Source: a virus. From it: a DNA stretch of 64,000 bases. The position numbers and the translations under genes were made by a program. The notes under the pieces are model-generated. The model had not been told where the DNA came from, made no database searches, and worked only from the letters and a program-made list of their open reading frames with translations. This document shows, one piece after another, positions 28,108 through 56,856 of this stretch. Every line of letters starts with the position of its first letter. Positions within the stretch are counted from its first letter, which is position 1. The stretch covers positions 83,890 through 147,889 of IMG/VR virus record IMGVR_UViG_3300036861_000610. One strand, written 5' to 3'.

Positions 28108-28719
28108 GTGTCTAACCTTCGACCCGGTATCACGTGTCTTGTGGCCTGCCACCCGGAGCGTCTCTCCAACGGCCTAGCCGTGGAGTCGCTGGCTTCCATT
28201 GCCCGACAGACCATGCAGCCAGACACCATCATTCTGGTAAACGACATGGAACGGGCTGGAGCCGGCCGCACTCGCCAGAAGCTTCTGCGCATGGTAGAAA
28301 CCGAGTGGCTGGCCTGGTGCGACTCAGACGACCTTCTGCTACCTAAGCACCTGGAGACACTCTATAACCGGGCCCAGGAGACTGGCGCGGTGTTCGTCAA
28401 CGCCTGGTTCAATGCCCCTCACGACCCGCTCGGACACTTTGGCAAGCTTTTAGACCCTTGCAACCCACATCACACCACCATTACCTTCATGGTGAAAACC
28501 GAGCTGGCTCAGGAAGTTGGCTTCGAAGAATCCCTGGAAGACAGCCCATTTTCCGAAGAGGACTGGCGCCATATCGCCGGCATTGCAGCTCTGTGCTGTG
28601 AGCGCGGACTGAAAATGGAGCATGTCCCCGAGAAGACGTGGTGGTGGCGTCAGCAAGGACAGAACACGTCTGGCCTTCCACGGGGTGGCGACATAGTACA
28701 AAAGATTCTGCACCGATAG
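28108..28719 (+). CDS. GT2 family glycosyltransferase
   Basis: IILVND, TEWLAWCDSDD, EEDW. Confidence 0.8.
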   Translation: MSNLRPGITCLVACHPERLSNGLAVESLASIARQTMQPDTIILVNDMERAGAGRTRQKLLRMVETEWLAWCDSDDLLLPKHLETLYNRAQETGAVFVNAWFNAPHDPLGHFGKLLDPCNPHHTTITFMVKTELAQEVGFEESLEDSPFSEEDWRHIAGIAALCCERGLKMEHVPEKTWWWRQQGQNTSGLPRGGDIVQKILHR

Positions 28720-28728
28720 TCTGCCCTT

Positions 28729-29562
28729 ATGCCTACGTATGTGCAGCTGGGTTCCGAGGCTGTGTGGGGTGCTCAGTTCATCCCGCCGGTAATGAACGCT
28801 GGGCTGATCGGTCCGCTTCGAGTGTTCTATGGGCTGAGTTTCAATGCAGTGGGCTCCGCAGGAGACAACAACCACCTGTACGGCCGGCATCGCAGCTACA
28901 ACTGGGACGTGTTGTCCAGGTTCTGCACGGACCGCGCATACGGCACCACGGATTCACGAGACCAGGGCGGCGACCGTAACTGGTATCGCGCAGTAGACGT
29001 CGGAATCACGGGCCAGCAGCTTTTCGACGCCAGTCACCGCATGGACGCGCTAGCACGTTCTGGAGAATGTCCAGGCCTCGCGGAATGGTTCGGCACCTTC
29101 GACGGAGTAAACGTTGTTGGCTGGTTCCAGGGACAACCGGCCAGCTCCGACAGTTCGCACCTACTCCACCTTCATGCCGGAGTGTGGAACCAATACGCCA
29201 ATGACGCTGCCACCATGCAGCAGATTTATGGGGCCATCACTGGCACCGGAGGATCGCCACAGAAAGGCAAGGACATGTACGTCATTAGGGCGTGGCAAAC
29301 CGGCGGCACCTACAGCACCAATGGCACCACCTACTATCACCTCAGCAGTGGAGACCTAGTCGCCGCGGCCCTACGGATCGCCGGCCAGACCGAGCCAATC
29401 CCCATCGATGCGGGCGAGCTGCCCGCGTTTGGGGTAGACATTGAGTCGCTGCCGGTCACCTGCAACTGCGACTGCGGTGGAAGCGGCGGCGACGCAGGGC
29501 CCAGCGTGGCTCAGATCGCCGATGGGGTCGCAGACGAGCTGCGCCAGCGACTGGAGAGTTAA
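28729..29562 (+). CDS. Endolysin, M15/LAS-type Zn peptidase-like
   Basis: GDNNH..GRH, AVD and DSSHLLHLH metal-binding pattern; lies upstream of a holin-like gene. Confidence 0.65.
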   Translation: MPTYVQLGSEAVWGAQFIPPVMNAGLIGPLRVFYGLSFNAVGSAGDNNHLYGRHRSYNWDVLSRFCTDRAYGTTDSRDQGGDRNWYRAVDVGITGQQLFDASHRMDALARSGECPGLAEWFGTFDGVNVVGWFQGQPASSDSSHLLHLHAGVWNQYANDAATMQQIYGAITGTGGSPQKGKDMYVIRAWQTGGTYSTNGTTYYHLSSGDLVAAALRIAGQTEPIPIDAGELPAFGVDIESLPVTCNCDCGGSGGDAGPSVAQIADGVADELRQRLES

Positions 29563-44581: not shown

Positions 44582-45004
44582 TCAAGGGTTGATCAAAGAA
44601 AGTTGCTGGTCAAGGCACCTCGGCCGCCAGGGCGTGCTCCGCACCTCGATGCCGGCCCGGCGGGCCAGATTCATGCAGTTGATCGTCCCCCGAGACCCGG
44701 GCCCCGGGAACCCGAGACAGACCGCGGCCCCCAGGTTGACCATCTTGGCGTTGCGCTCGGGCCCCAGGATGCGGCCGTTTACCTTGCGGGCTGGGTGAGG
44801 TTCAACCTTGAAGCCGTGGGCGATGGCCCACTGCTCGGACCAGAGATCGGCACCGCCGTACTCACACTGGCCGTGGACCAGAACGAACTCAGCTGGAAGT
44901 TGGCAAGCTACTACAAATTCGTCGAGTTTCTGCCAGACGATGTCCTTGTCGGCCTCGGGCCAGTCCCTCCAGCCGGTGGTCAAAATTCTTACAGGAAGTT
45001 CCAT
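44582..45004 (-). CDS. YspA/DUF2493-like SLOG family protein
   Basis: RBS AGGAAGGGG; RILTTGWRDW, LVHG...GGAD, GPERNAKMV, FPG..SRGT.NC. Confidence 0.8.
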   Translation of the reverse strand: MELPVRILTTGWRDWPEADKDIVWQKLDEFVVACQLPAEFVLVHGQCEYGGADLWSEQWAIAHGFKVEPHPARKVNGRILGPERNAKMVNLGAAVCLGFPGPGSRGTINCMNLARRAGIEVRSTPWRPRCLDQQLSLINP

Positions 45005-45030
45005 CGTCGCACCCCTTCCTGAAATCCCTA

Positions 45031-45090
45031 ACCAGACCATGCCCTGCCGTGCCACGCCGGACCTAACCCGACCGAACCTGACCCCACCGA
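45031..45090 (-). ncRNA. Array A: 12 perfect GGY-NN pentamers (putative guide RNA)
   Basis: + strand accag accat gccct gccgt gccac gccgg accta acccg accga acctg acccc accga; intergenic. Expression as RNA is inferred. Confidence 0.75.
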
Positions 45091-45093
45091 GTT

Positions 45094-45636
45094 TTACTCC
45101 TCGATGCCGTGACGTCGGAGCATCTCGACAAGGCGATCGAGGCGATCATCTTTGACCAAGGCATCCTTCTCCGTGAGAGCCTGGCGCTTGTCCAGCCGAA
45201 CAACCTGACGCTCGGTCTTTAACTGTCGCCGAGTGAGCTGGTTCATCATCTCTTCCTGTCGGGCAAGATGAAGCTCGATGGCGCTAAGCCGGCGACGTTC
45301 GGCCGAGTCGAGGCGAGTCTGGTCCACGAAGGTAACAAGTCGCTTAGCTCGACGCGTGCTTCGCCGAGACTTTGCCTGCTGATTCAGCCCCAGTCGCTCC
45401 TGCTCCCGTGACTCCACCATCCGATAGCCAACCTTGCGAACTCGGTCGAAGGCTCGCAGATGCTCCGTAAGCATGCGACCTGCGGCATAGTAAAAGGCCC
45501 CACGGACAGAGGCCTTCGGAGTACCGGGCAACAGGTTGTGCAGGGTCTCGTCTGAGACCACGTCGTCAATCTGCATGGTCCGCAGGTGGTCAAAGATGAC
45601 CTGCCACTGGGGCCGAGTTTCCTTGCTTTGGAACAT
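45094..45636 (-). CDS. Accessory protein of RAMP locus 1 (winged-helix-like N-terminus, coiled-coil C-terminus)
   Basis: GGAGG RBS; VRKVGYR wing-like motif; lies between arrays B and A. Confidence 0.7.
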   Translation of the reverse strand: MFQSKETRPQWQVIFDHLRTMQIDDVVSDETLHNLLPGTPKASVRGAFYYAAGRMLTEHLRAFDRVRKVGYRMVESREQERLGLNQQAKSRRSTRRAKRLVTFVDQTRLDSAERRRLSAIELHLARQEEMMNQLTRRQLKTERQVVRLDKRQALTEKDALVKDDRLDRLVEMLRRHGIEE

Positions 45637-45650
45637 CTTTTGGCCTCCCC

Positions 45651-45930
45651 ACCTAACCGAACCTAGCCCAACCTAGCCTTGCCCGACCTGACCCAACCGA
45701 ACCAAGCCAAGCCCGAGGCCCCTACCCAGCCCAACCCCACCAAGCCGGGCCTGACCGTACCGAACCACAGAAGCCTTACGGTACCCAACCTCACCGGACC
45801 GAACCGCGCCCAGCCAGGCCATAGAAGCTTGTGCCCCCCGACTCCCTACCAAACCCAGCCATGCCCCACCGGACAATGCCTGACCACGCCTAGCCTGACC
45901 GCACCAAACCACACCATGCGGAACCCAACC
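45651..45930 (-). ncRNA. Array B: about 50 GGY-NN pentamers in 4 blocks of 10-17 units
   Basis: RCC-NN period 5 on +; short linkers including AGAA at 45769 and 45823; begins right after the RAMP stop codon. Confidence 0.75.
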
Positions 45931-45936
45931 AAAAAG

Positions 45937-46527
45937 CTAGACGACTTCTACGGCAGCATCAAAGCGCCCATACTGCTGCCTGTAGTCGCCAAATCCATAA
46001 AGCTTTCCACCGATAACGGCAATATCGGTCAGTTCGTCGGCATCAATGACGCCAGGGTCGAGCACGATGTCAGATTCCATCGACCAGTTCTTGAACATGG
46101 GCCGGCAGCGGTCAATCTTCGCCTGGCCGACACGGGCGGAGCGGAAGTCAACAAACTCACTGGCCCCACTGTCACCCCAGAGCCCTTCAATGGTGCGTGG
46201 GCCTTTGTATAGCAGCGGATGGACAAGTTCGACGATGACGATGCCGCCCTCGATCTTCTTGCCGCGCCGGCCCGATCGAGCAGCTTCGAGAAGGTTCTTG
46301 AAGATCCAGCTGGCCGGGATGTACGGGCCGATGCCTTCCTCGAAGTACAGGCCGCCCTCCCACTCCACGCGCGCAATCTCCAACCGATCCTCGTCAGTGC
46401 GCTTGCTCGACGGCTTGGCCTTGTTGAGGCGCGACATCTCCTTGGCGAAGGGGTCGAGCGGTGAAGCAAGGCGCACGTTGTGCATGAGCAGTGGACGTGT
46501 GCCGGTCGCCGTCAGTCTGACCTTCAT
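45937..46527 (-). CDS. Stand-alone Cas7/RAMP-like protein 1 (196 aa)
   Basis: RAMP-like layout: N-terminal strand with G (LTATGTRPLLMH), PYIP..(I)FK..L, R..VG....R.RP.F..W, C-terminal G-rich loop GFGDYRQQYGRF. RBS GGAGAGAG before ATG 46527. Confidence 0.7.
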   Translation of the reverse strand: MKVRLTATGTRPLLMHNVRLASPLDPFAKEMSRLNKAKPSSKRTDEDRLEIARVEWEGGLYFEEGIGPYIPASWIFKNLLEAARSGRRGKKIEGGIVIVELVHPLLYKGPRTIEGLWGDSGASEFVDFRSARVGQAKIDRCRPMFKNWSMESDIVLDPGVIDADELTDIAVIGGKLYGFGDYRQQYGRFDAAVEVV

Positions 46528-46555: not shown

Positions 46556-46867
46556 CTAGTAGGGTCGACTTTCGGTGAGTAGCCTGGCCACGGTGGCGGC
46601 CGTCTGGCCGGTCTCCCGGGCAATGTCTTGGGGCATCATGCCGTTCTGCCTGGCAGCCCTGGCAGCAGAGCGACGAATGGTGGCAGTTCCGCCCATTAAC
46701 TGATCTCGCATCAGGGCAATAACTTCGCCCGCAATAACGATGGTTTGCACTTCGTCGTGGCCGGTGAGGATAGTGGTCAGGCACGCCCGTAGCTGGGCTT
46801 GGGCTGGTGTGTCGACCCACTCGTCCGGTGGCCTCAGTGTGTCTTCGACGAGTTGGTCTTTGATCAT
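46556..46867 (-). CDS. Small protein with C-terminal helix-turn-helix
   Basis: GGAGG RBS; GMMPQDIARETGQTAATVARLL. Confidence 0.7.
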   Translation of the reverse strand: MIKDQLVEDTLRPPDEWVDTPAQAQLRACLTTILTGHDEVQTIVIAGEVIALMRDQLMGGTATIRRSAARAARQNGMMPQDIARETGQTAATVARLLTESRPY

Positions 46868-51484: not shown

Positions 51485-51560
51485 TGTTAGACCCCCTATT
51501 TCCAAATTTTCTGGGAGGCGATTTTCAAATCAACGCATCGATGTACTTAGACTCATGTAT

Positions 51561-52781
51561 GCCTGCCAAGCCAAGCCCCACCTAGCCGAACGTTGCCCTG
51601 CCTGCCGCACCGCGCCTACCGGACCGTGCCGAGCCATGCCATCCCCACTATGGCCTCACCGTGCCTGCCCTGCCGTACCAAGCTTCAACAGACCCAGCCC
51701 CGCCTCACCTGCCCCGCCTCACCGTGCCTGACCAAAACACACCTCGCCTGCCGTGCCTTGCCTAGCCCCGCCTTACCTACCTAGCCACACCTTGTCGTTG
51801 TGGACCCCGCCACGCCTGCCCTGCCAAGCCGAACCATTCCACGCCTGACCGTGCCTGCCGGGCCGCACCTTGCCATGCCAAAGGACGCCGAGCCCTGTCA
51901 CGCCGAACCTGCCGTACCCCACCATTCCCCGCCGAGTCCTACCTCGCCTGCCATGCCACGCCGGGCCGTAACCAACCTTGCCGGATCTTGCCCTGCCTGC
52001 CACGTCATGCCATGTCGAACCTCGCCAAGCCCATCCGAAACTCGCCTGCCCCGCCGCACCCAGCCACACCTTGTCGTTGTGGACCCCGCCTTGTCACGCC
52101 GTGCCATGCCTGCCCTACCACACCTAGTCGGACCCGAACTCGCCTAGCCGATACCCACCGCGCCTGCCCCGCCGTACCTTGACTTGCCGCGCCATGCCAG
52201 AACTAGCCCTCGCCTCGCCTGCCACGCCTTGTGAAACCTAACCCCACCAAACCGAGCCGGACCCCGTCTTGTTAAACCCAGCCAAGCCCTACCCCAGCCA
52301 CGCCTGCCACACCATGCCCCGCCGAGCCTTTCCTCACCACACCGCACCGGGGCTGCCGCACCTAACCTCACCGCGCCATGTCTCGCCATGCCTGCCCAGC
52401 CGTAACGCCCCTCACCGTGCCCAACCTCGCCATGCCTGCCGAACCTTGCCTCGACGTACCCAGCCCTACCGGGTCCTACCGCCACCTCACCGCGCCTGCC
52501 GAACCTGGCCATATGCTGCCGTGCCGAACCCCGCCACGCCTGCCTAGCCATACCTCGCCGAGCCCCGCCCCCCCCTAGCCTGCCTAGCCGCGCCTCGTTT
52601 CACCCCACCGAGCCTTGTCACAACGCGCCACACCTGCCTCACCCAACCGCACCATGCCATGCCATGACGAACCACGCCTGCCGCGCCCTACGATGCCTTG
52701 CCACAACCGGTATTTCCCTGCCATGCCTGCCTTGCCTTGCCGCACCATGCCTAGATAGCCGAGCCGCACCTGCCATGTCCT
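51561..52781 (-). ncRNA. Array C: about 1.2 kb of GGY-NN pentamers divided into about 26 units by 4-nt RCCT breaks (sense GGC-A-GGY)
   Basis: RCC-NN period 5 on +; 27 breaks between 51561 and 52768; starts immediately after the stop of the accessory gene. Confidence 0.8.
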
Positions 52782-53219
52782 TCAGGCTTCAATCAGGACA
52801 CCGACCCGAACTTCACTCTCAACGAGATCCCAGAATTCCTCGAAGTTCTCGTAGCGACGCTTCAAGGCCTCCCAGTCACGTCGCATCTCTGCCCTAAGTA
52901 GGCGCATGATCATTGGATCCTGGATAACGACCGCGGCCGGCTCGTAGGCGTACTTCCTCGTCCCATCGTCCTTTTTCACTGCATGGAAGGCGCGAATGGA
53001 GATGGGGTTCCCCGTCTTGGGGCTGGTGTAGTTCACCCGCACGGACCTGATCAGGTCGTGCGCTTGGACACGGCGGTACTTTTCCGCCGCGATGGTGTTG
53101 TTCCACTCGAACCTTGTGTGGAGTGGGTGACGGTTGTCGCGGGCAACATCCACAACAAGCGCGGGAGTCAGTTCCCCGCGCTCGTCGTAGATGGCCTGCA
53201 GGTGATCCCGCAGACTCAT
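52782..53219 (-). CDS. Accessory protein of RAMP locus 2
   Basis: AGGAG RBS; LTPALVVDVAR...HPLHTRFEWNNTIAAEKYR motif. Confidence 0.75.
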   Translation of the reverse strand: MSLRDHLQAIYDERGELTPALVVDVARDNRHPLHTRFEWNNTIAAEKYRRVQAHDLIRSVRVNYTSPKTGNPISIRAFHAVKKDDGTRKYAYEPAAVVIQDPMIMRLLRAEMRRDWEALKRRYENFEEFWDLVESEVRVGVLIEA

Positions 53220-53242: not shown

Positions 53243-53887
53243 CTACTTCTGGACGTCCTTGTTGGTGAGGACCTCGATGTCACGCTCCGGGTCGATCATG
53301 TAGGTGCCCATGTCGCCCTTCTTCTCCGGCCGCCACTCCCCGACGCCGACGCCCATGCCTCCGGCGTCGATGAGGGACAAGACGGAGGCCTGCGTCAGCT
53401 GTGAGGTCACGTAGGTGACCCGCAGCTCGGTCTTCCACTCCGAGAATTCGGGGCGGTAACGCAGGTCGGTGCCGCCGTTGCCGACGCGCACGACGTCTTC
53501 GCGCTTCTTGGGCTCGCCTTCGATGATGGCGAGCTGCTGCCCATCCACGCCGACCTCACCGCGGAAGAACAGCACCTGCCGGAGCAGGGTCATCGTGACT
53601 CCGGCGAAGAACCGTGCGCCGCCGATGGTCGATGCCTTGAAGGCGATAACCGGAAGCCCGTACGCGCCATCGTTGGTGCGGTAGAACGCCGCCTCGTACT
53701 CGGCGTCGGGGTCCTTCGGCTGCTTGGGGGTCTTGCGCCCCTGCATCGCGTCGAGCATCTGCTTCTTCGCCTTCTCGGAGAAGCGGTGGATGATCAGCGG
53801 CGACGTCCCCACGATGGGGACGATGAGCGTCTCCGCGTCGATGCGAGGGATCTCGATGATGTTGGTTGTCTTTGCTGCCGTTGCCAT
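53243..53887 (-). CDS. Stand-alone Cas7/RAMP-like protein 2 (214 aa)
   Basis: IVGTSPLIIH, YGLPVIAFK, VRVG...DLRYRPEFSEW, G-rich loop AGGMGVGVGEWRPEKKGDMGTY; GGAGGAG RBS; strong codon bias. Confidence 0.75.
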   Translation of the reverse strand: MATAAKTTNIIEIPRIDAETLIVPIVGTSPLIIHRFSEKAKKQMLDAMQGRKTPKQPKDPDAEYEAAFYRTNDGAYGLPVIAFKASTIGGARFFAGVTMTLLRQVLFFRGEVGVDGQQLAIIEGEPKKREDVVRVGNGGTDLRYRPEFSEWKTELRVTYVTSQLTQASVLSLIDAGGMGVGVGEWRPEKKGDMGTYMIDPERDIEVLTNKDVQK

Positions 53888-53924
53888 GGGTTACTCCTCC
53901 AGGAGTGTCTACTTAGGACGTTTC

Positions 53925-54857
53925 CCATGCCGTGCCGCACCATGCCTTCCTCTCCGAGGAGAGGCTGTACCTTTCCTGACTCGCCTGCCTAGACGTGCCA
54001 AGCCTTCCCGGGCCGGGTCTCACCGAGCCAAGCCACACCTCACCTGCCCCACCCCGCCTAGCCTGCCAAACCGCGCCGTGCCACGACGAACCACGCCTGC
54101 CAAGCCATGCCCTGCCTTCACGTACCCCGCCAAACCGAGCCTGCCCTGCCGGACCAAACCCCAACTCCCCGAACCTGGCCACGCCACGCCCCGCGATGCC
54201 TGCCGAACCCCGCCTTACCCGAAAGAGCCGGGACTTGCCACGCCTGCCCTGCCTCGCCGGACGGTGCCTTACCCAAACGAAACGTGCCGTGCCGCGCCTG
54301 CCTTGCCCTACCATTGCTTGCCGCACCGGGCCTAGCCACAACACACCTCACCTGCCGTACCGAACCGCACCGGATCGAGCCGGGCCCTACCTGCCATGCC
54401 TCTCCTAGCCACACCCCGCCTCGCCTGCCATGCCCGACCCAGCCCCTCCTAACCCCTCGGCGCCGTGCCCCACCTGCCCTACCGCTCCGGACCATTACAC
54501 GCCTGACCGTGCCTAGCCACATCCCGCCTGCCTCACCACATCAAGCAAGCCTCGCCACACCTCGCCCTGCCTGCCATGCCACATCGCGCCAAGCCCAGCC
54601 TTACCATTCCTGCCGGACCGAGCCTTGCCAAGCCCCACCTGACCCCTCCTGACCAGACCGTGCCTGCCGGGCCGCACCCCGCCTCGTCCAGCCTCACCTC
54701 ACCTGCCATGTCGTGCCGCATCACGCCACGCCTCAACTCGCCCCACCTGCCATGCCGAGCCGTGCCATTACTAACCACTCCGAGCCCTACCTCACCTGCC
54801 CAGCCCTGCCTAGCCACATGAAGCCGCGCCCTGTGAAGCCCAACCCCACCACGCCTA
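53925..54857 (-). ncRNA. Array D: about 0.9 kb of GGY-NN pentamers with 19 GGC-A-GGY breaks
   Basis: Breaks at 53983, 54042, 54061, 54095, 54139, 54198, 54242, 54296, 54350, 54389, 54423, 54472, 54526, 54569, 54608, 54662, 54701, 54745, 54794. Confidence 0.8.
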
Positions 54858-56856
54858 TTGCCGAGTGTCGATGCTGAACGAGAAGCGGCCAAGACTGATC
54901 ATGAAGGTGAACATGTCGCCGCCCCAGCTGATCCAGACCCAGCCGTTGTCACTTTTGTAGGCGGGTCCCTGCTCGGGACTGCGAGTGAGGATGCGGCGGG
55001 GGATGAAGTTTTTCATGCGGCGGCCTGGTCCTGGACGGTCTGCCACTGGGCCAGCTGCTGCTCGTGCAGCACCTTCCATAGTGGTTCCTCGCCGGCCGTC
55101 CACACCAGGTGTCGGGGTACCTCGTGGGCGCTGTGAATGGCTTGAATGTGGAAGCCGCCGAACTCCCGGCAGACGGGGCACGGTGATGGCTGCGCGGTCA
55201 TGTCTCCTCCTTTGGTTCGCCTTTGCGGGCGATGATTGCCCTGATTTCCTGACAGGAGCGCTTCCACTTCCGAGCCAGACTCAGGCGCAGGGCGCCGATT
55301 CCGTAGTCGTGGACGAATTCGCCGTGCCGCCTCGCCCGGTACTCCAGGTAGATCCTCTTCTCGGGCGTCTGCCCCATGTCCGTACCCTTCTAGTTTTCTG
55401 GCTCTCCAACGGCCTCGATCAGGGTGCCGAGGGCAGCGTCAATGCGCAGGAGCTTGGCTTTCTGGTCGGCGACCTTGACCCGCAGTGCCCGGCTCTCTTC
55501 TCTGATGCGACGCAGCTCCGCCGCCTGGTCGAGGCTGCCTTGGGTCTGGCGAACGATGAGGGATTCGCCCAACTCCTGAATCAAAGTCCTCAGGGCATCG
55601 GCAGTGCTGTCGACCCATTTTCCGCGGAAAACCCTAACTCCTGAAGCTGTTTTAGTGACAAGGGCGGCGCGGACGAGGGTGCCGTCGGTGCCGTTGCCCA
55701 CCTCGTAGCGCAGTTCGATGGTCTCGTCGTTCACCTCGCGTTGCATATCCTCTCCTTCGCCGTTCATTGCTCGACGCATTGCTTCCACTTCTTCGGGAGG
55801 AAGTCGATGAACAATCAGCGGCTTGGTGCCGATGAGGATAAGCGGATCGTCTGGGCCCTTACTCACGCTTGACCCACCTTCTGGGTGCACAGGTGCTTGG
55901 TGGAGGCCTCAACGAGGTCAGCGACGCTCATGCCTGGAGTAATGGTCATGACGTCGCAGACGGGCTCATCGTCGCCGCGGTCGTGTACCAGGTAGGCGTG
56001 CCGGGAGGTGAACACGTACTCGTCGAGGCCTTCCAGGTCGATGTGGTGGGGGCCCAGGTCGGCTTCGTCGGCGATGAAGAAGTCGTCGAGGAACCGACGT
56101 TCCTCTTCGGCGACTTCGTGCTCGAATTCGTCGGGCCAATAGTCGGCCATCTCGGCTTCGGTGCCGCCGGCCTCGACTGCCTTGGTTTCCTGCTTACCGG
56201 TCATGGGGGCTCCAGTGATGGGGGTCGAGGCGGCAGCCAGTGACGCAAACGATTGATCGAGTCTGATGAGACGTTTGATGTCGTCCATGCGGTAGAAGCC
56301 TTTGATGCCGGCGCAGAGGAACACGATGAACGGCAGCATCCACCAGCCGTAGTCGTCGATGTACCGGACGAAGCCGAAGAAGAGCGCGAAGAAGAAGCTC
56401 ATGCCCGTCGCGATGATGCTGCAGTTCTTCCACTCCTCGCGCACAGGGATGGCGCTGGCCAAAAGAAAGGCGGCCAGCCCCAGCACAGTGGCAAGGATAA
56501 GGAGGACGGTGCGGGTCAGCAGGATGCCCATGTCACTTCTTTCCCTTGTCGTCGTCTTTGATGATGGGCGGGTGCCAGAGCCCTGACGTCAGCGGGTCGG
56601 GGCCGACGTACAGCCGGCAGGCGCAAGCGCCGATCTTGTCGTCGTACTTGTTGAAGACGTCGACCTTGCACTTGTAGCCGCCGTTCTCGTGGGCGCCATA
56701 TACGTGGCCACACAGGCATTTCGGCGGAGGGGTTGGAGGGGCTGGTCGCTTAATGTCCCGGGTGTAGATGCGCCCCAGGAGATAGCCCAAAAGCGCCGAG
56801 AAGATCGAGAACACAGCCTGCATTAAGCCAATGGCAATGACGATGCCGACATTCAT
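54855..56856 (-). CDS. Small hypothetical and membrane genes (54855-55016, 55013-55201, 55390-~55866, 55863-56531, 56533-56856)
   Basis: Overlap packing and RBSs; transmembrane segments in the last two. Confidence 0.5.

What the first reader, a model, noticed from the sequence alone, without database searches (positions are those of the whole stretch)
44954..45090. Array A decodes to a gapped match with the adjacent gene, skipping every third base
Seen: the NN dinucleotides of array A (+ strand, in order) are AG AT CT GT AC GG TA CG GA TG CC GA. Codon positions 1-2 of the neighbouring SLOG gene (44989-44954; AGA ATT TTG ACC ACC GGC TGG AGG GAC TGG CCC GAG) are AG AT TT AC AC GG TG AG GA TG CC GA. 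That is 8/12 dinucleotides and 19/24 nt identical, and two of the mismatches would be G-U/G-T wobbles. The guide reads as R-I-L-V-T-G-Y-R-D-W-P-E against the gene's RILTTGWRDWPE. My rough binomial estimate is about 1e-7 per site, and the site is only 40 bp away and in codon frame. Inference: the array RNA pairs 2 nt then skips 1, so it ignores wobble-position variation.
Basis: partly seen in the sequence, partly recalled or inferred. Interest (0 to 1): 0.95.

Follow-up and report, generated by a model that had tools for sequence, protein, structure and literature searches.

The report
VIPR guide RNA targeting rival phages
The 5-base repeat tract beside the SLOG gene is a guide RNA of a VIPR system, a CRISPR-like phage weapon described in 2026 that reads two bases and skips one; it matches the same gene in rival phages better than this phage's own, recoded copy.

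Summary
Array A is 13 YNNGG units on the gene strand (window 45027-45091). Read with one skipped base, its 12 units match codons 6-17 of the adjacent SLOG gene at 19/24. That site is the single best hit in the 148-kb phage genome, and 7 of 1500 shuffled guides do as well.

The scan has already met VIPR on other DNA.

- **Membership:** the neighbouring 196-aa gene is a Vipr protein. It has a Cas7-like fold, 31% identity to the characterised SUSP1 Vipr, and conserved GGY-reading residues.
- **New here:** the guide fits the homologous SLOG genes of related metagenomic phages better (23-24/26) than its own (19/26, below the published 80% threshold).
- **Own allele:** it differs at decoded positions by a unique Val-to-Thr change and by minority Leu TTG and Arg AGG codons.
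- **Cassette:** vipr1, array B, vap1 and array A form a 1.55-kb insertion immediately upstream of that allele.

The likeliest function is silencing rivals' SLOG genes while sparing self. Expression and binding are untested. This is a new member of a known kind.

The parts
45027..45091 (-). Array A, the candidate vrRNA-A. It has 13 uninterrupted YNNGG units, starts 2 nt after the vap1 stop codon and ends about 22 nt before the SLOG start codon. Read in gene sense, the NN spell Y-R-I-L-V-T-G-Y-R-D-W-P-E.
44954..44992 (-). Near-target in the resident SLOG gene (codons 5-17, VRILTTGWRDWPE).
44582..45004 (-). SLOG gene (YAcAr/YpsA-related; annotated 'DprA-like' in actinophages), 140 aa.
45094..45636 (-). 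vap1, the accessory gene of the cassette (180 aa, phrog_5926). It is conserved directly downstream of vipr1 homologues in three other phage contigs at 47-51% identity.
45642..45933 (-). Array B, about 50 YNNGG units in several blocks between vipr1 and vap1. Probably 3 vrRNAs.
45937..46527 (-). vipr1, 196 aa. It has a Cas7-like RAMP fold and is a homologue of the SUSP1 Vipr.
46556..46867 (-). 103-aa gene that forms the upstream boundary of the inserted cassette. In nine relatives its homologue lies just upstream of the SLOG gene, separated by at most one or two small ORFs.
53243..53887 (-). vipr2, 214 aa. It is a second, distant Vipr paralogue in the same PHROG family. It belongs to a separate VIPR locus with vap2 (52782-53219).
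51560..52781 (-). Array C of locus 2. Its pentamer units are punctuated by 4-nt CAGG breaks ('staggered' grammar).
53920..54860 (-). Array D of locus 2, with the same CAGG-punctuated grammar.

Best explanation
Array A is a guide RNA (vrRNA) of a VIPR system carried by this roughly 148-kb actinophage-like virus.

Inferred from the SUSP1 model: the array is transcribed with vipr1, array B and vap1. One Vipr1 protomer binds each of the 13 GGY units and presents the 13 NN dinucleotides. The filament then pairs with double-stranded DNA two bases at a time, flipping out every third target base, and blocks transcription.

Shown here: the guide spells codon positions 1-2 of the most conserved block of the SLOG gene family (consensus YRILVTGWRDWPE).

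Inferred: its working targets are the SLOG genes of related phages that lack the cassette. The resident SLOG copy, directly downstream of the guide, has changed at four or five decoded units and is spared.
For: Shown here:
- vipr1 is a Vipr. It matches phrog_4652 over its full length. It is 31% identical to the Vipr ORF of phage SUSP1 (E 3.9e-25), whose locus shows the published 1+3 vrRNAs.
- The AlphaFold model has pLDDT 92. All 47 Foldseek hits at E<=1e-3 are CRISPR effector complexes, apparently their Cas7-type backbone subunits, including 6ifn_E.
- The residues that read GGY in SUSP1 (H17, R138, D177, W178, R179) are conserved as H16, R142, D181, Y182 and R183.
- Array A is 13 clean YNNGG units on the gene strand inside the vipr1-vap1 cassette.
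- NN match at 1-nt skip, in frame with the skip at wobble: own gene 19/26. Homologues L013, L015, L019, L020 and L032 give 24/26. L014, L021 and L029 give 23/26. L027 gives 22/26.
- Other skips reach at most 18/26, and 1000 shuffles reach at most 21/26.
- The mismatch shared by all the close (WRDW-type) homologues, TA against the Trp codon TGG, would be an rU-dG wobble.
- The guide window ranks 1st of 141 for position-1/2 conservation among the relatives.
- The own allele is derived. Its Thr is unique among 25 homologues. Leu TTG is 12.7% of Leu codons and Arg AGG is 9.3% of Arg codons.
- The cassette is an insertion. In nine relatives the 103-aa gene and SLOG lie next to each other, with at most one or two small ORFs between.

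From the literature:
- The 1-nt skip rule, repression and the >=80% NN threshold.
- Lower self-match than non-self match, reported as autoimmunity avoidance.
Against: - There are no RNA data. Expression, processing and Vipr1 loading of array A are inferred.
- No conserved structured 3' tail, as in the SUSP1 clade, was recognised after array A. The whole region folds no better than shuffles (z = -0.53).
- No perfect 26/26 or 24/24 target was found in IMG/VR. The best are 24/26.
- The mismatch tolerance of this Vipr clade is unknown, so 19/26 may still bind.
- The target phages are known only from metagenome contigs. A shared host and co-infection are not shown.
- The relatives were found through homology to the resident gene, so their hits are one homologous site seen many times.
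- The closest whole-genome relative (L026) and L016 also match poorly (19-20/26). The minority codons may therefore be lineage history rather than escape.
Confidence: 0.72

Rival explanations
1. Self-regulation. The guide's real target is the resident SLOG gene. The partial match (19/26, two of the mismatches being wobbles) gives weak, tunable binding about 35 nt downstream of the array, which times or dampens expression of SLOG and the genes behind it.
For: The site is the best hit in the phage's own genome and lies immediately downstream in the same operon. 19/24 is 79%, just under the published 80% cut-off. Targeting either strand near a gene's 5' end represses in the SUSP1 system.
Against: Twelve of thirteen related alleles match better than the resident one and the thirteenth only equals it. 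The resident allele is as poor a match as 45%-identical genes of GenBank actinophages, which score 18-21/26. The published surveys found no self-hits at >=80% and read low self-match as autoimmunity avoidance.
Confidence: 0.13
2. Relic guide. Array A was once a working guide, or was copied from an ancestral SLOG allele, but is no longer made or loaded. The match is history without present function.
For: No recognisable 3' tail and no promoter or terminator inside the locus. The array sits in a 5' UTR where it may simply be part of the mRNA.
Against: All 13 units keep perfect GG and a pyrimidine before NN. The NN still match living alleles at 92%. vipr1 and vap1 are intact and conserved.
Confidence: 0.1
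3. Cis-acting RNA structure. The array in the 5' UTR folds back on the coding region of the same mRNA to control translation, and the gapped complementarity is a by-product.
For: The array is antisense in polarity to the matched codons, as the arms of a hairpin would be. A 7-bp stem (44992-44998 with 45015-45021) encloses the ribosome-binding site and start codon.
Against: Two-base pairs separated by 3-nt and 1-nt bulges are not stable without protein. The 147-nt region folds no better than shuffles (z = -0.53; 58 of 200 shuffles fold as well). This does not explain the better match to other phages.
Confidence: 0.03
4. Chance resemblance between a short repeat tract and a nearby gene.
Against: Per-site p is 1.6e-8 and genome-wide p about 0.005. 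Related alleles reach 24/26, while 1000 shuffles never exceed 21/26.
Confidence: 0.01

Closest known systems
Type II VIPR of Escherichia phage SUSP1 (Vipr + vap1 + vrRNAs; bioRxiv 10.64898/2026.04.26.720920, .720927)
   Same: - Homologous Vipr protein (31% identity, E 4e-25) with the same GGY-reading residues.
- Guide made of 13 YNNGG units, within the published 9-16.
- A two-gene vipr-vap cassette flanked by arrays.
- Targets read by the 1-nt skip rule with the skip at the wobble position, lying in a rival mobile element's gene.
   Different: - Actinophage-type genome at 61% GC rather than an enterobacterial phage.
- No SUSP1-like pseudoknot tail recognised after array A.
- vap1 is unrelated in sequence to anything I could name.
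- The guide abuts a resident, mismatched homologue of its target.
- The phage carries a second, distant VIPR locus.
Staggered vrRNA arrays of other VIPR types (fig. S18 of the same preprint)
   Same: Arrays C and D of locus 2 are broken by 4-nt CAGG units at spacings of 4+5n. This fits the described 1-nt overlap between successive vrRNAs.
   Different: This applies to locus 2, not to array A. I could not see the figure or the type table, so the type assignment is open.
vrRNA-targeting solo vrRNAs of SUSP1-family phages (bioRxiv 10.64898/2026.10.15.759431)
   Same: The guide's self-match is lower than its match to relatives. That preprint reads this pattern as avoidance of autoimmunity while hitting competitors.
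   Different: There the target is a rival's vrRNA or vipr locus. Here it is an ordinary conserved protein-coding gene, and the resident copy differs by codon-level recoding. The words 'allele' and 'recod' do not occur in that text.
Class 1 CRISPR Cas7 backbone filaments (Csm3, Cmr4, type VII Cas7)
   Same: The fold of Vipr1 (Foldseek probability 1.00, TM 0.45-0.55). One protomer per guide segment, with a thumb flipping bases at fixed intervals.
   Different: No CRISPR repeats or spacers were seen, and no cas1/cas2 in the genes annotated around the two loci. The guide information is interleaved with the scaffold, and pairing runs 2 of every 3 target bases instead of 5 of 6.
Free-standing homing endonucleases of T-even phages that cut the neighbouring gene's allele in relatives (analogy, from general knowledge)
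   Same: A small inserted cassette lies next to a resistant allele of the very gene it attacks in relatives that lack the insertion.
   Different: No nuclease is evident. VIPR type II represses rather than cuts, and drive-like inheritance is not shown.

Membership tests
VIPR system | A Vipr protein: a small RAMP (Cas7-like RRM core, thumb, glycine-rich loop). | tested here: met
   The AF2 model of the 196-aa protein has pLDDT 92.4. All 47 Foldseek PDB hits at E<=1e-3 are CRISPR effector complexes, apparently their Cas7-type backbone subunits (Csm3, Cmr4, type VII Cas7, Csf2), including 6ifn_E. The C-terminal G-x-G-D-aromatic-R loop is conserved.
VIPR system | Sequence homology to an experimentally characterised Vipr. 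| tested here: met
   The match to the SUSP1 record NC_028808.2 at 28498-29049 has E 3.9e-25 and 31% identity over residues 4-192. That locus shows one upstream and three downstream YNNGG arrays, as published.
VIPR system | Residues that bind G1, G2 and Y3 of the GGY scaffold. | tested here: met
   SUSP1 H17, R138, D177, W178 and R179 align with Vipr1 H16, R142, D181, Y182 and R183, and with Vipr2 H34, R145, E184, W185 and R186. K33 (skip-base backbone contact) is not conserved; it is S32 in Vipr1.
VIPR system | vrRNA of tandem YNNGG units (9-16) with fixed GGY and variable NN, beside vipr on the same strand. | tested here: met
   Array A has 13 units, all with GG and a pyrimidine. Array B has about 50 units. 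Relatives with 73-75% identical Vipr1 carry arrays with different NN.
VIPR system | An invariant structured 3' tail after the repeat tract (SUSP1 clade). | tested here: inconclusive
   Nothing like the SUSP1 tail follows array A. There is only a 7-bp stem over the SLOG ribosome-binding site, and the fold z-score is -0.53. Block ends in array B and in the L008 and L012 arrays share a short TAGGG-purine motif.
VIPR system | An accessory vap gene in a two-gene operon. | tested here: met
   The 180-aa gene is conserved directly after vipr1 homologues in L008, L010 and L012. Its fold is helical with weak, non-significant winged-helix-like hits, so a DNA-binding role is not shown.
VIPR system | Natural targets obey the 1-nt skip rule at >=80% NN match, with the skip at the wobble position, in other mobile elements. 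| tested here: met
   Nine related phage contigs match at 22-24/26 (85-92%), all in frame in the SLOG gene. Other skips reach at most 18/26 and shuffles at most 21/26.
VIPR system | No self-target at >=80% NN match. | tested here: met
   The best own-genome hit is 19/26 (73%), or 19/24 (79%) for 12 units.
VIPR system | The vrRNA is expressed, bound by Vipr, and represses a matching DNA target. | not testable with these tools
No RNA data are available.
CRISPR-Cas | An array of identical 25-40 nt repeats with unique spacers, plus an adaptation module. | tested here: not met
   The arrays have a 5-nt period with no longer repeat unit. Only lone Cas7-like genes with small accessory genes are present.

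The most novel reading that the evidence does not exclude
The vipr1-arrayB-vap1-arrayA cassette behaves as a selfish allele-exclusion module. It is inserted directly upstream of a SLOG allele that has been recoded at decoded positions (a unique Val-to-Thr change, Leu CTN to TTG, Arg CGN to AGG). It silences the unrecoded allele of co-infecting relatives that lack the insertion. Guide and immune allele are therefore inherited together, much as a free-standing homing endonuclease travels with its resistant neighbouring allele. A corollary is that synonymous first-position recoding of Leu and Arg codons is a general escape route from a wobble-blind guide.
Probability: 0.33. Interest if true: 0.7.

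Novelty: new member of a known kind. Interest (0 to 1): 0.45.

Why it matters
The gapped "two on, one off" code is no longer a discovery. It was published in 2026 and the scan has met VIPR loci before.

This locus adds a clean natural example outside the enterobacterial and Pseudomonas model systems, in which guide, target family and resident escape allele can all be read side by side:
- The guide sits on the most conserved 13 codons of a widespread actinophage gene.
- It tolerates all third-position variation among at least nine rival alleles.
- It fails on its own copy through the only kinds of change that defeat such a guide: an amino-acid change plus Leu and Arg first-position synonymous switches.

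That gives a directly testable model of self/non-self discrimination in VIPR. It also gives a possible reason why a cassette would insert next to its target gene.

Tried and rejected
**First idea, dropped**
- I first recalled TRAP-like or CsrA-like protein-binding RNA repeats, G-quadruplex or i-motif DNA, and iterons. I dropped these once the VIPR preprint was found and membership was tested.

**Searches that found nothing**
- Megablast of the locus against GenBank phages: no match.
- Rfam and tRNA scans of the window: nothing.
- The search for related loci with the single SLOG protein: nothing. The family alignment gave 6 loci.
- Exact-pattern scans of IMG/VR for the full 12-unit guide and a 9-unit core: 0 hits. 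No perfect target is known.
- Exact scans for a 10-unit guide of array D and a 12-unit guide of array B: 0 hits.
- A pattern tolerant at two units found one more SLOG target in JGI metagenomes and none in 185,579 reference genomes. The targets are therefore not in reference chromosomes or prophages.

**Scans that stayed at noise level**
- Sliding-window scan of guides from arrays B, C and D against the own genome plus 16 related loci (309 kb): no excess at gap 1. Their targets remain unknown.
- Local self-matches for guides in three related vipr1 loci: noise level.

**Other attempts**
Unresolved and possibly chance.
- vap1 fold: pLDDT 71, with no Foldseek hit at E<=1e-3.
- The supplementary tables of the preprint are not held. 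I could not check whether this locus or its type is listed.

Full report
**1. What is there**

The window is the right-hand 64 kb of a 147,889-bp IMG/VR virus record with 60.8% GC. Four non-coding tracts have a strict 5-nt period. On the + strand they read NNRCC. On the strand of the flanking genes they read YNNGG. They lie at about 45027-45091 (A), 45642-45933 (B), 51560-52781 (C) and 53920-54860 (D).

Array A is 13 uninterrupted units. It begins 2 nt after the stop codon of a 180-aa gene (45094-45636). It ends about 22 nt before the start codon of a 140-aa SLOG gene (44582-45004; Pfam YAcAr, E 5.8e-9).

**2. Check of the observation**

- Scanning the whole genome on both strands with the guide at gaps 0-3, the SLOG site is the single best gap-1 hit. 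The runner-up is 16/24, and gaps 0 and 2 reach 16-17.
- In 1500 shuffles of unit order, the per-site probability of >=19/24 is 1.6e-8. Only 7 shuffles reach that score anywhere in the genome.
- The site is about 35-40 nt from the array, in frame, with the skipped base at the wobble position.
- Even allowing some hundred implicit choices (gap, guide ends, array), chance is excluded.

With all 13 units the phage's own match is 19/26.

**3. What it is**

A literature search on the repeat type found the VIPR preprint. VIPR systems consist of a small RAMP protein (Vipr), usually an accessory gene (vap), and vrRNAs of 9-16 YNNGG repeats. The NN dinucleotides pair with double-stranded DNA while one target base per unit is skipped, usually the codon wobble base. 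Binding represses transcription, and natural targets are rival phages, prophages and satellites. Cryo-EM shows one protomer per repeat and a thumb that flips out GGY on the guide and one base on the target.

I tested membership rather than assuming it.

- The 196-aa gene 45937-46527 and the 214-aa gene 53243-53887 both match phrog_4652 over their full length. They are distant paralogues.
- Vipr1 matches the Vipr ORF of phage SUSP1 at E 3.9e-25 and 31% identity. My array finder recovers the published one-upstream, three-downstream vrRNAs there.
- The AlphaFold model (pLDDT 92.4) hits only CRISPR effector complexes, apparently their Cas7-type backbone subunits. These include the 6ifn_E chain that the authors used as a query.
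- The SUSP1 residues that read G1 and G2 and pack on Y3 (H17, R138, D177, W178, R179) are conserved in both Vipr1 and Vipr2.
- The 180-aa gene is conserved immediately downstream of 73-75% identical vipr1 genes on three other phage contigs, again with arrays of different NN content. It therefore behaves as a vap gene. Its fold prediction was not informative.

**4. The real targets**

The SLOG protein has 24 homologues in the large protein collection. Their consensus at the matched site is RILVTGWRDWPE, which is the guide's reading except for one residue. The resident gene alone has Thr where the others have Val, Ile, Cys or Ala.

I fetched the DNA of the homologues and scored the 13-unit guide at 1-nt skip:

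| Allele | NN match |
|---|---|
| Own gene | 19/26 |
| L013, L015, L019, L020 | 24/26 |
| L032 (JGI metagenome contig) | 24/26 |
| L014, L021 | 23/26 |
| L029 (IMG/VR) | 23/26 |
| L027 (IMG/VR) | 22/26 |
| L016 | 20/26 |
| GenBank actinophage genes (about 45% protein identity) | 18-21/26 |

- The omitted 13th unit (TA) matches the Tyr codon that precedes the motif in most close relatives.
- The one mismatch shared by all the close (WRDW-type) homologues, TA against the Trp codon, would be an rU-dG wobble.
- In the 135 kb of related loci, gap 1 gives 5 sites at 24, 3 at 23, 1 at 22 and 3 at 21. Gaps 0, 2 and 3 give at most 18, and 1000 shuffled guides give at most 21.
- The matched alleles differ freely at third positions.
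- The guide window ranks first of 141 for conservation of codon positions 1-2 among the relatives, though nearly tied.

By the published criterion (>=80% NN match) the rivals' genes are targets and the resident gene is not.

**5. The resident allele and the cassette**

Apart from the shared Trp-codon wobble, the resident allele departs from the guide at four decoded units:
- Tyr TAY to Val GTA.
- Leu CTN to TTG.
- Val GTN to Thr ACC.
- Arg CGN to AGG.

TTG is 12.7% of Leu codons and AGG is 9.3% of Arg codons in this genome. These are the only synonymous changes that alter positions 1-2.

Two cautions apply. L016 shares TTG and an AGR codon. The closest whole-genome relative, L026, also matches poorly (19/26). 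Lineage history therefore cannot be separated from selection.

Synteny shows that vipr1, array B, vap1 and array A (1.55 kb) form an insertion. In nine relatives the homologue of the 103-aa gene 46556-46867 sits just upstream of SLOG, 48 bp away in L026. A GC-rich hairpin occupies the spacer in several of them.

**6. Mechanism proposed**

- Shown: the family membership of Vipr1, the array grammar, the gapped in-frame matches, their preference for non-self alleles, and the insertion.
- Inferred from SUSP1: co-transcription, since no promoter or terminator lies inside the locus; one Vipr1 protomer per unit; R-loop/triplex binding at the 5' end of rivals' SLOG genes; and repression of that gene and those downstream.
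- Not shown: expression, processing, a 3' tail, mismatch tolerance, and a shared host.

Rivals considered were self-regulation of the resident gene, a relic guide, a cis RNA fold (z = -0.53) and chance.

**7. Novelty**

The code, the protein family and the idea of lower self-match than non-self match are in print. The scan has reported VIPR loci on other DNA.

This is a new member from an actinophage-like virus that is probably absent from the NCBI-based census. It has two co-resident VIPR loci with different array grammars. It also offers a particularly legible guide, target and immune-allele triad beside the insertion point.

Noticed in passing
51560-52781 and 53920-54860: Arrays C and D (locus 2) are broken by GGCAGGY: 24 and 18 breaks, with spacings almost all 4+5n (39, 44, 49, 54 and so on). 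That gives roughly 45 short guides in the 'staggered' grammar. A 158-kb IMG/VR relative (L026) has a 94% identical Vipr2 and a 75% identical vap2, with the same grammar but entirely different NN content, including a run of a repeated three-unit guide.
   Followed up: partly
55390-55890 (-): A 166-aa ORF is similar to the N-terminal part of Vipr2 (30% over 72 aa, E 3.6e-6 in a small BLAST). It has no PHROG hit. It may be a truncated or diverged third Vipr-like gene just upstream of array D.
   Followed up: partly
44992-44998 and 45015-45021: A perfect 7-bp inverted repeat (CAGGAAG / CTTCCTG on the gene strand) encloses the ribosome-binding site and start codon of the SLOG gene, right after array A. 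It could be a vrRNA 3' handle or a translational hairpin.
   Followed up: partly
G000:C1:61380-61610 (+ strand; about 22 kb left of the window): A fifth YNNGG array with CAGG punctuation (locus-2 grammar) lies on the opposite strand, far from either vipr gene. It may be a solo array. It overlaps the place where another first-stage note (e1-5785251) reads Y-RNA units on the minus strand.
   Followed up: no
45720-45769 vs 46808-46837: A 10-unit block of array B matches the 103-aa gene on the other flank of the cassette at 15/20, in frame (note e1-5785304). Homologues in nine relatives score 12-15/20, no better than self. Unlike array A, this is not supported beyond chance with the data at hand.
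   Followed up: yes
L013:3620-3732, L014:3890-4000, L015:1095-1202, L032:300-453: Relatives that lack the cassette carry a conserved GC-rich hairpin followed by TTTGC, terminator-like, in the spacer upstream of SLOG. This is exactly where this phage has vipr1-arrayB-vap1-arrayA.
   Followed up: no
L020:947-1388, L021:974-1234: DUF397 (PF04149) genes, a family I recall as typical of Streptomyces-type actinobacteria, follow the SLOG gene on two target contigs. This is a hint at the host group of the rival phages.
   Followed up: no
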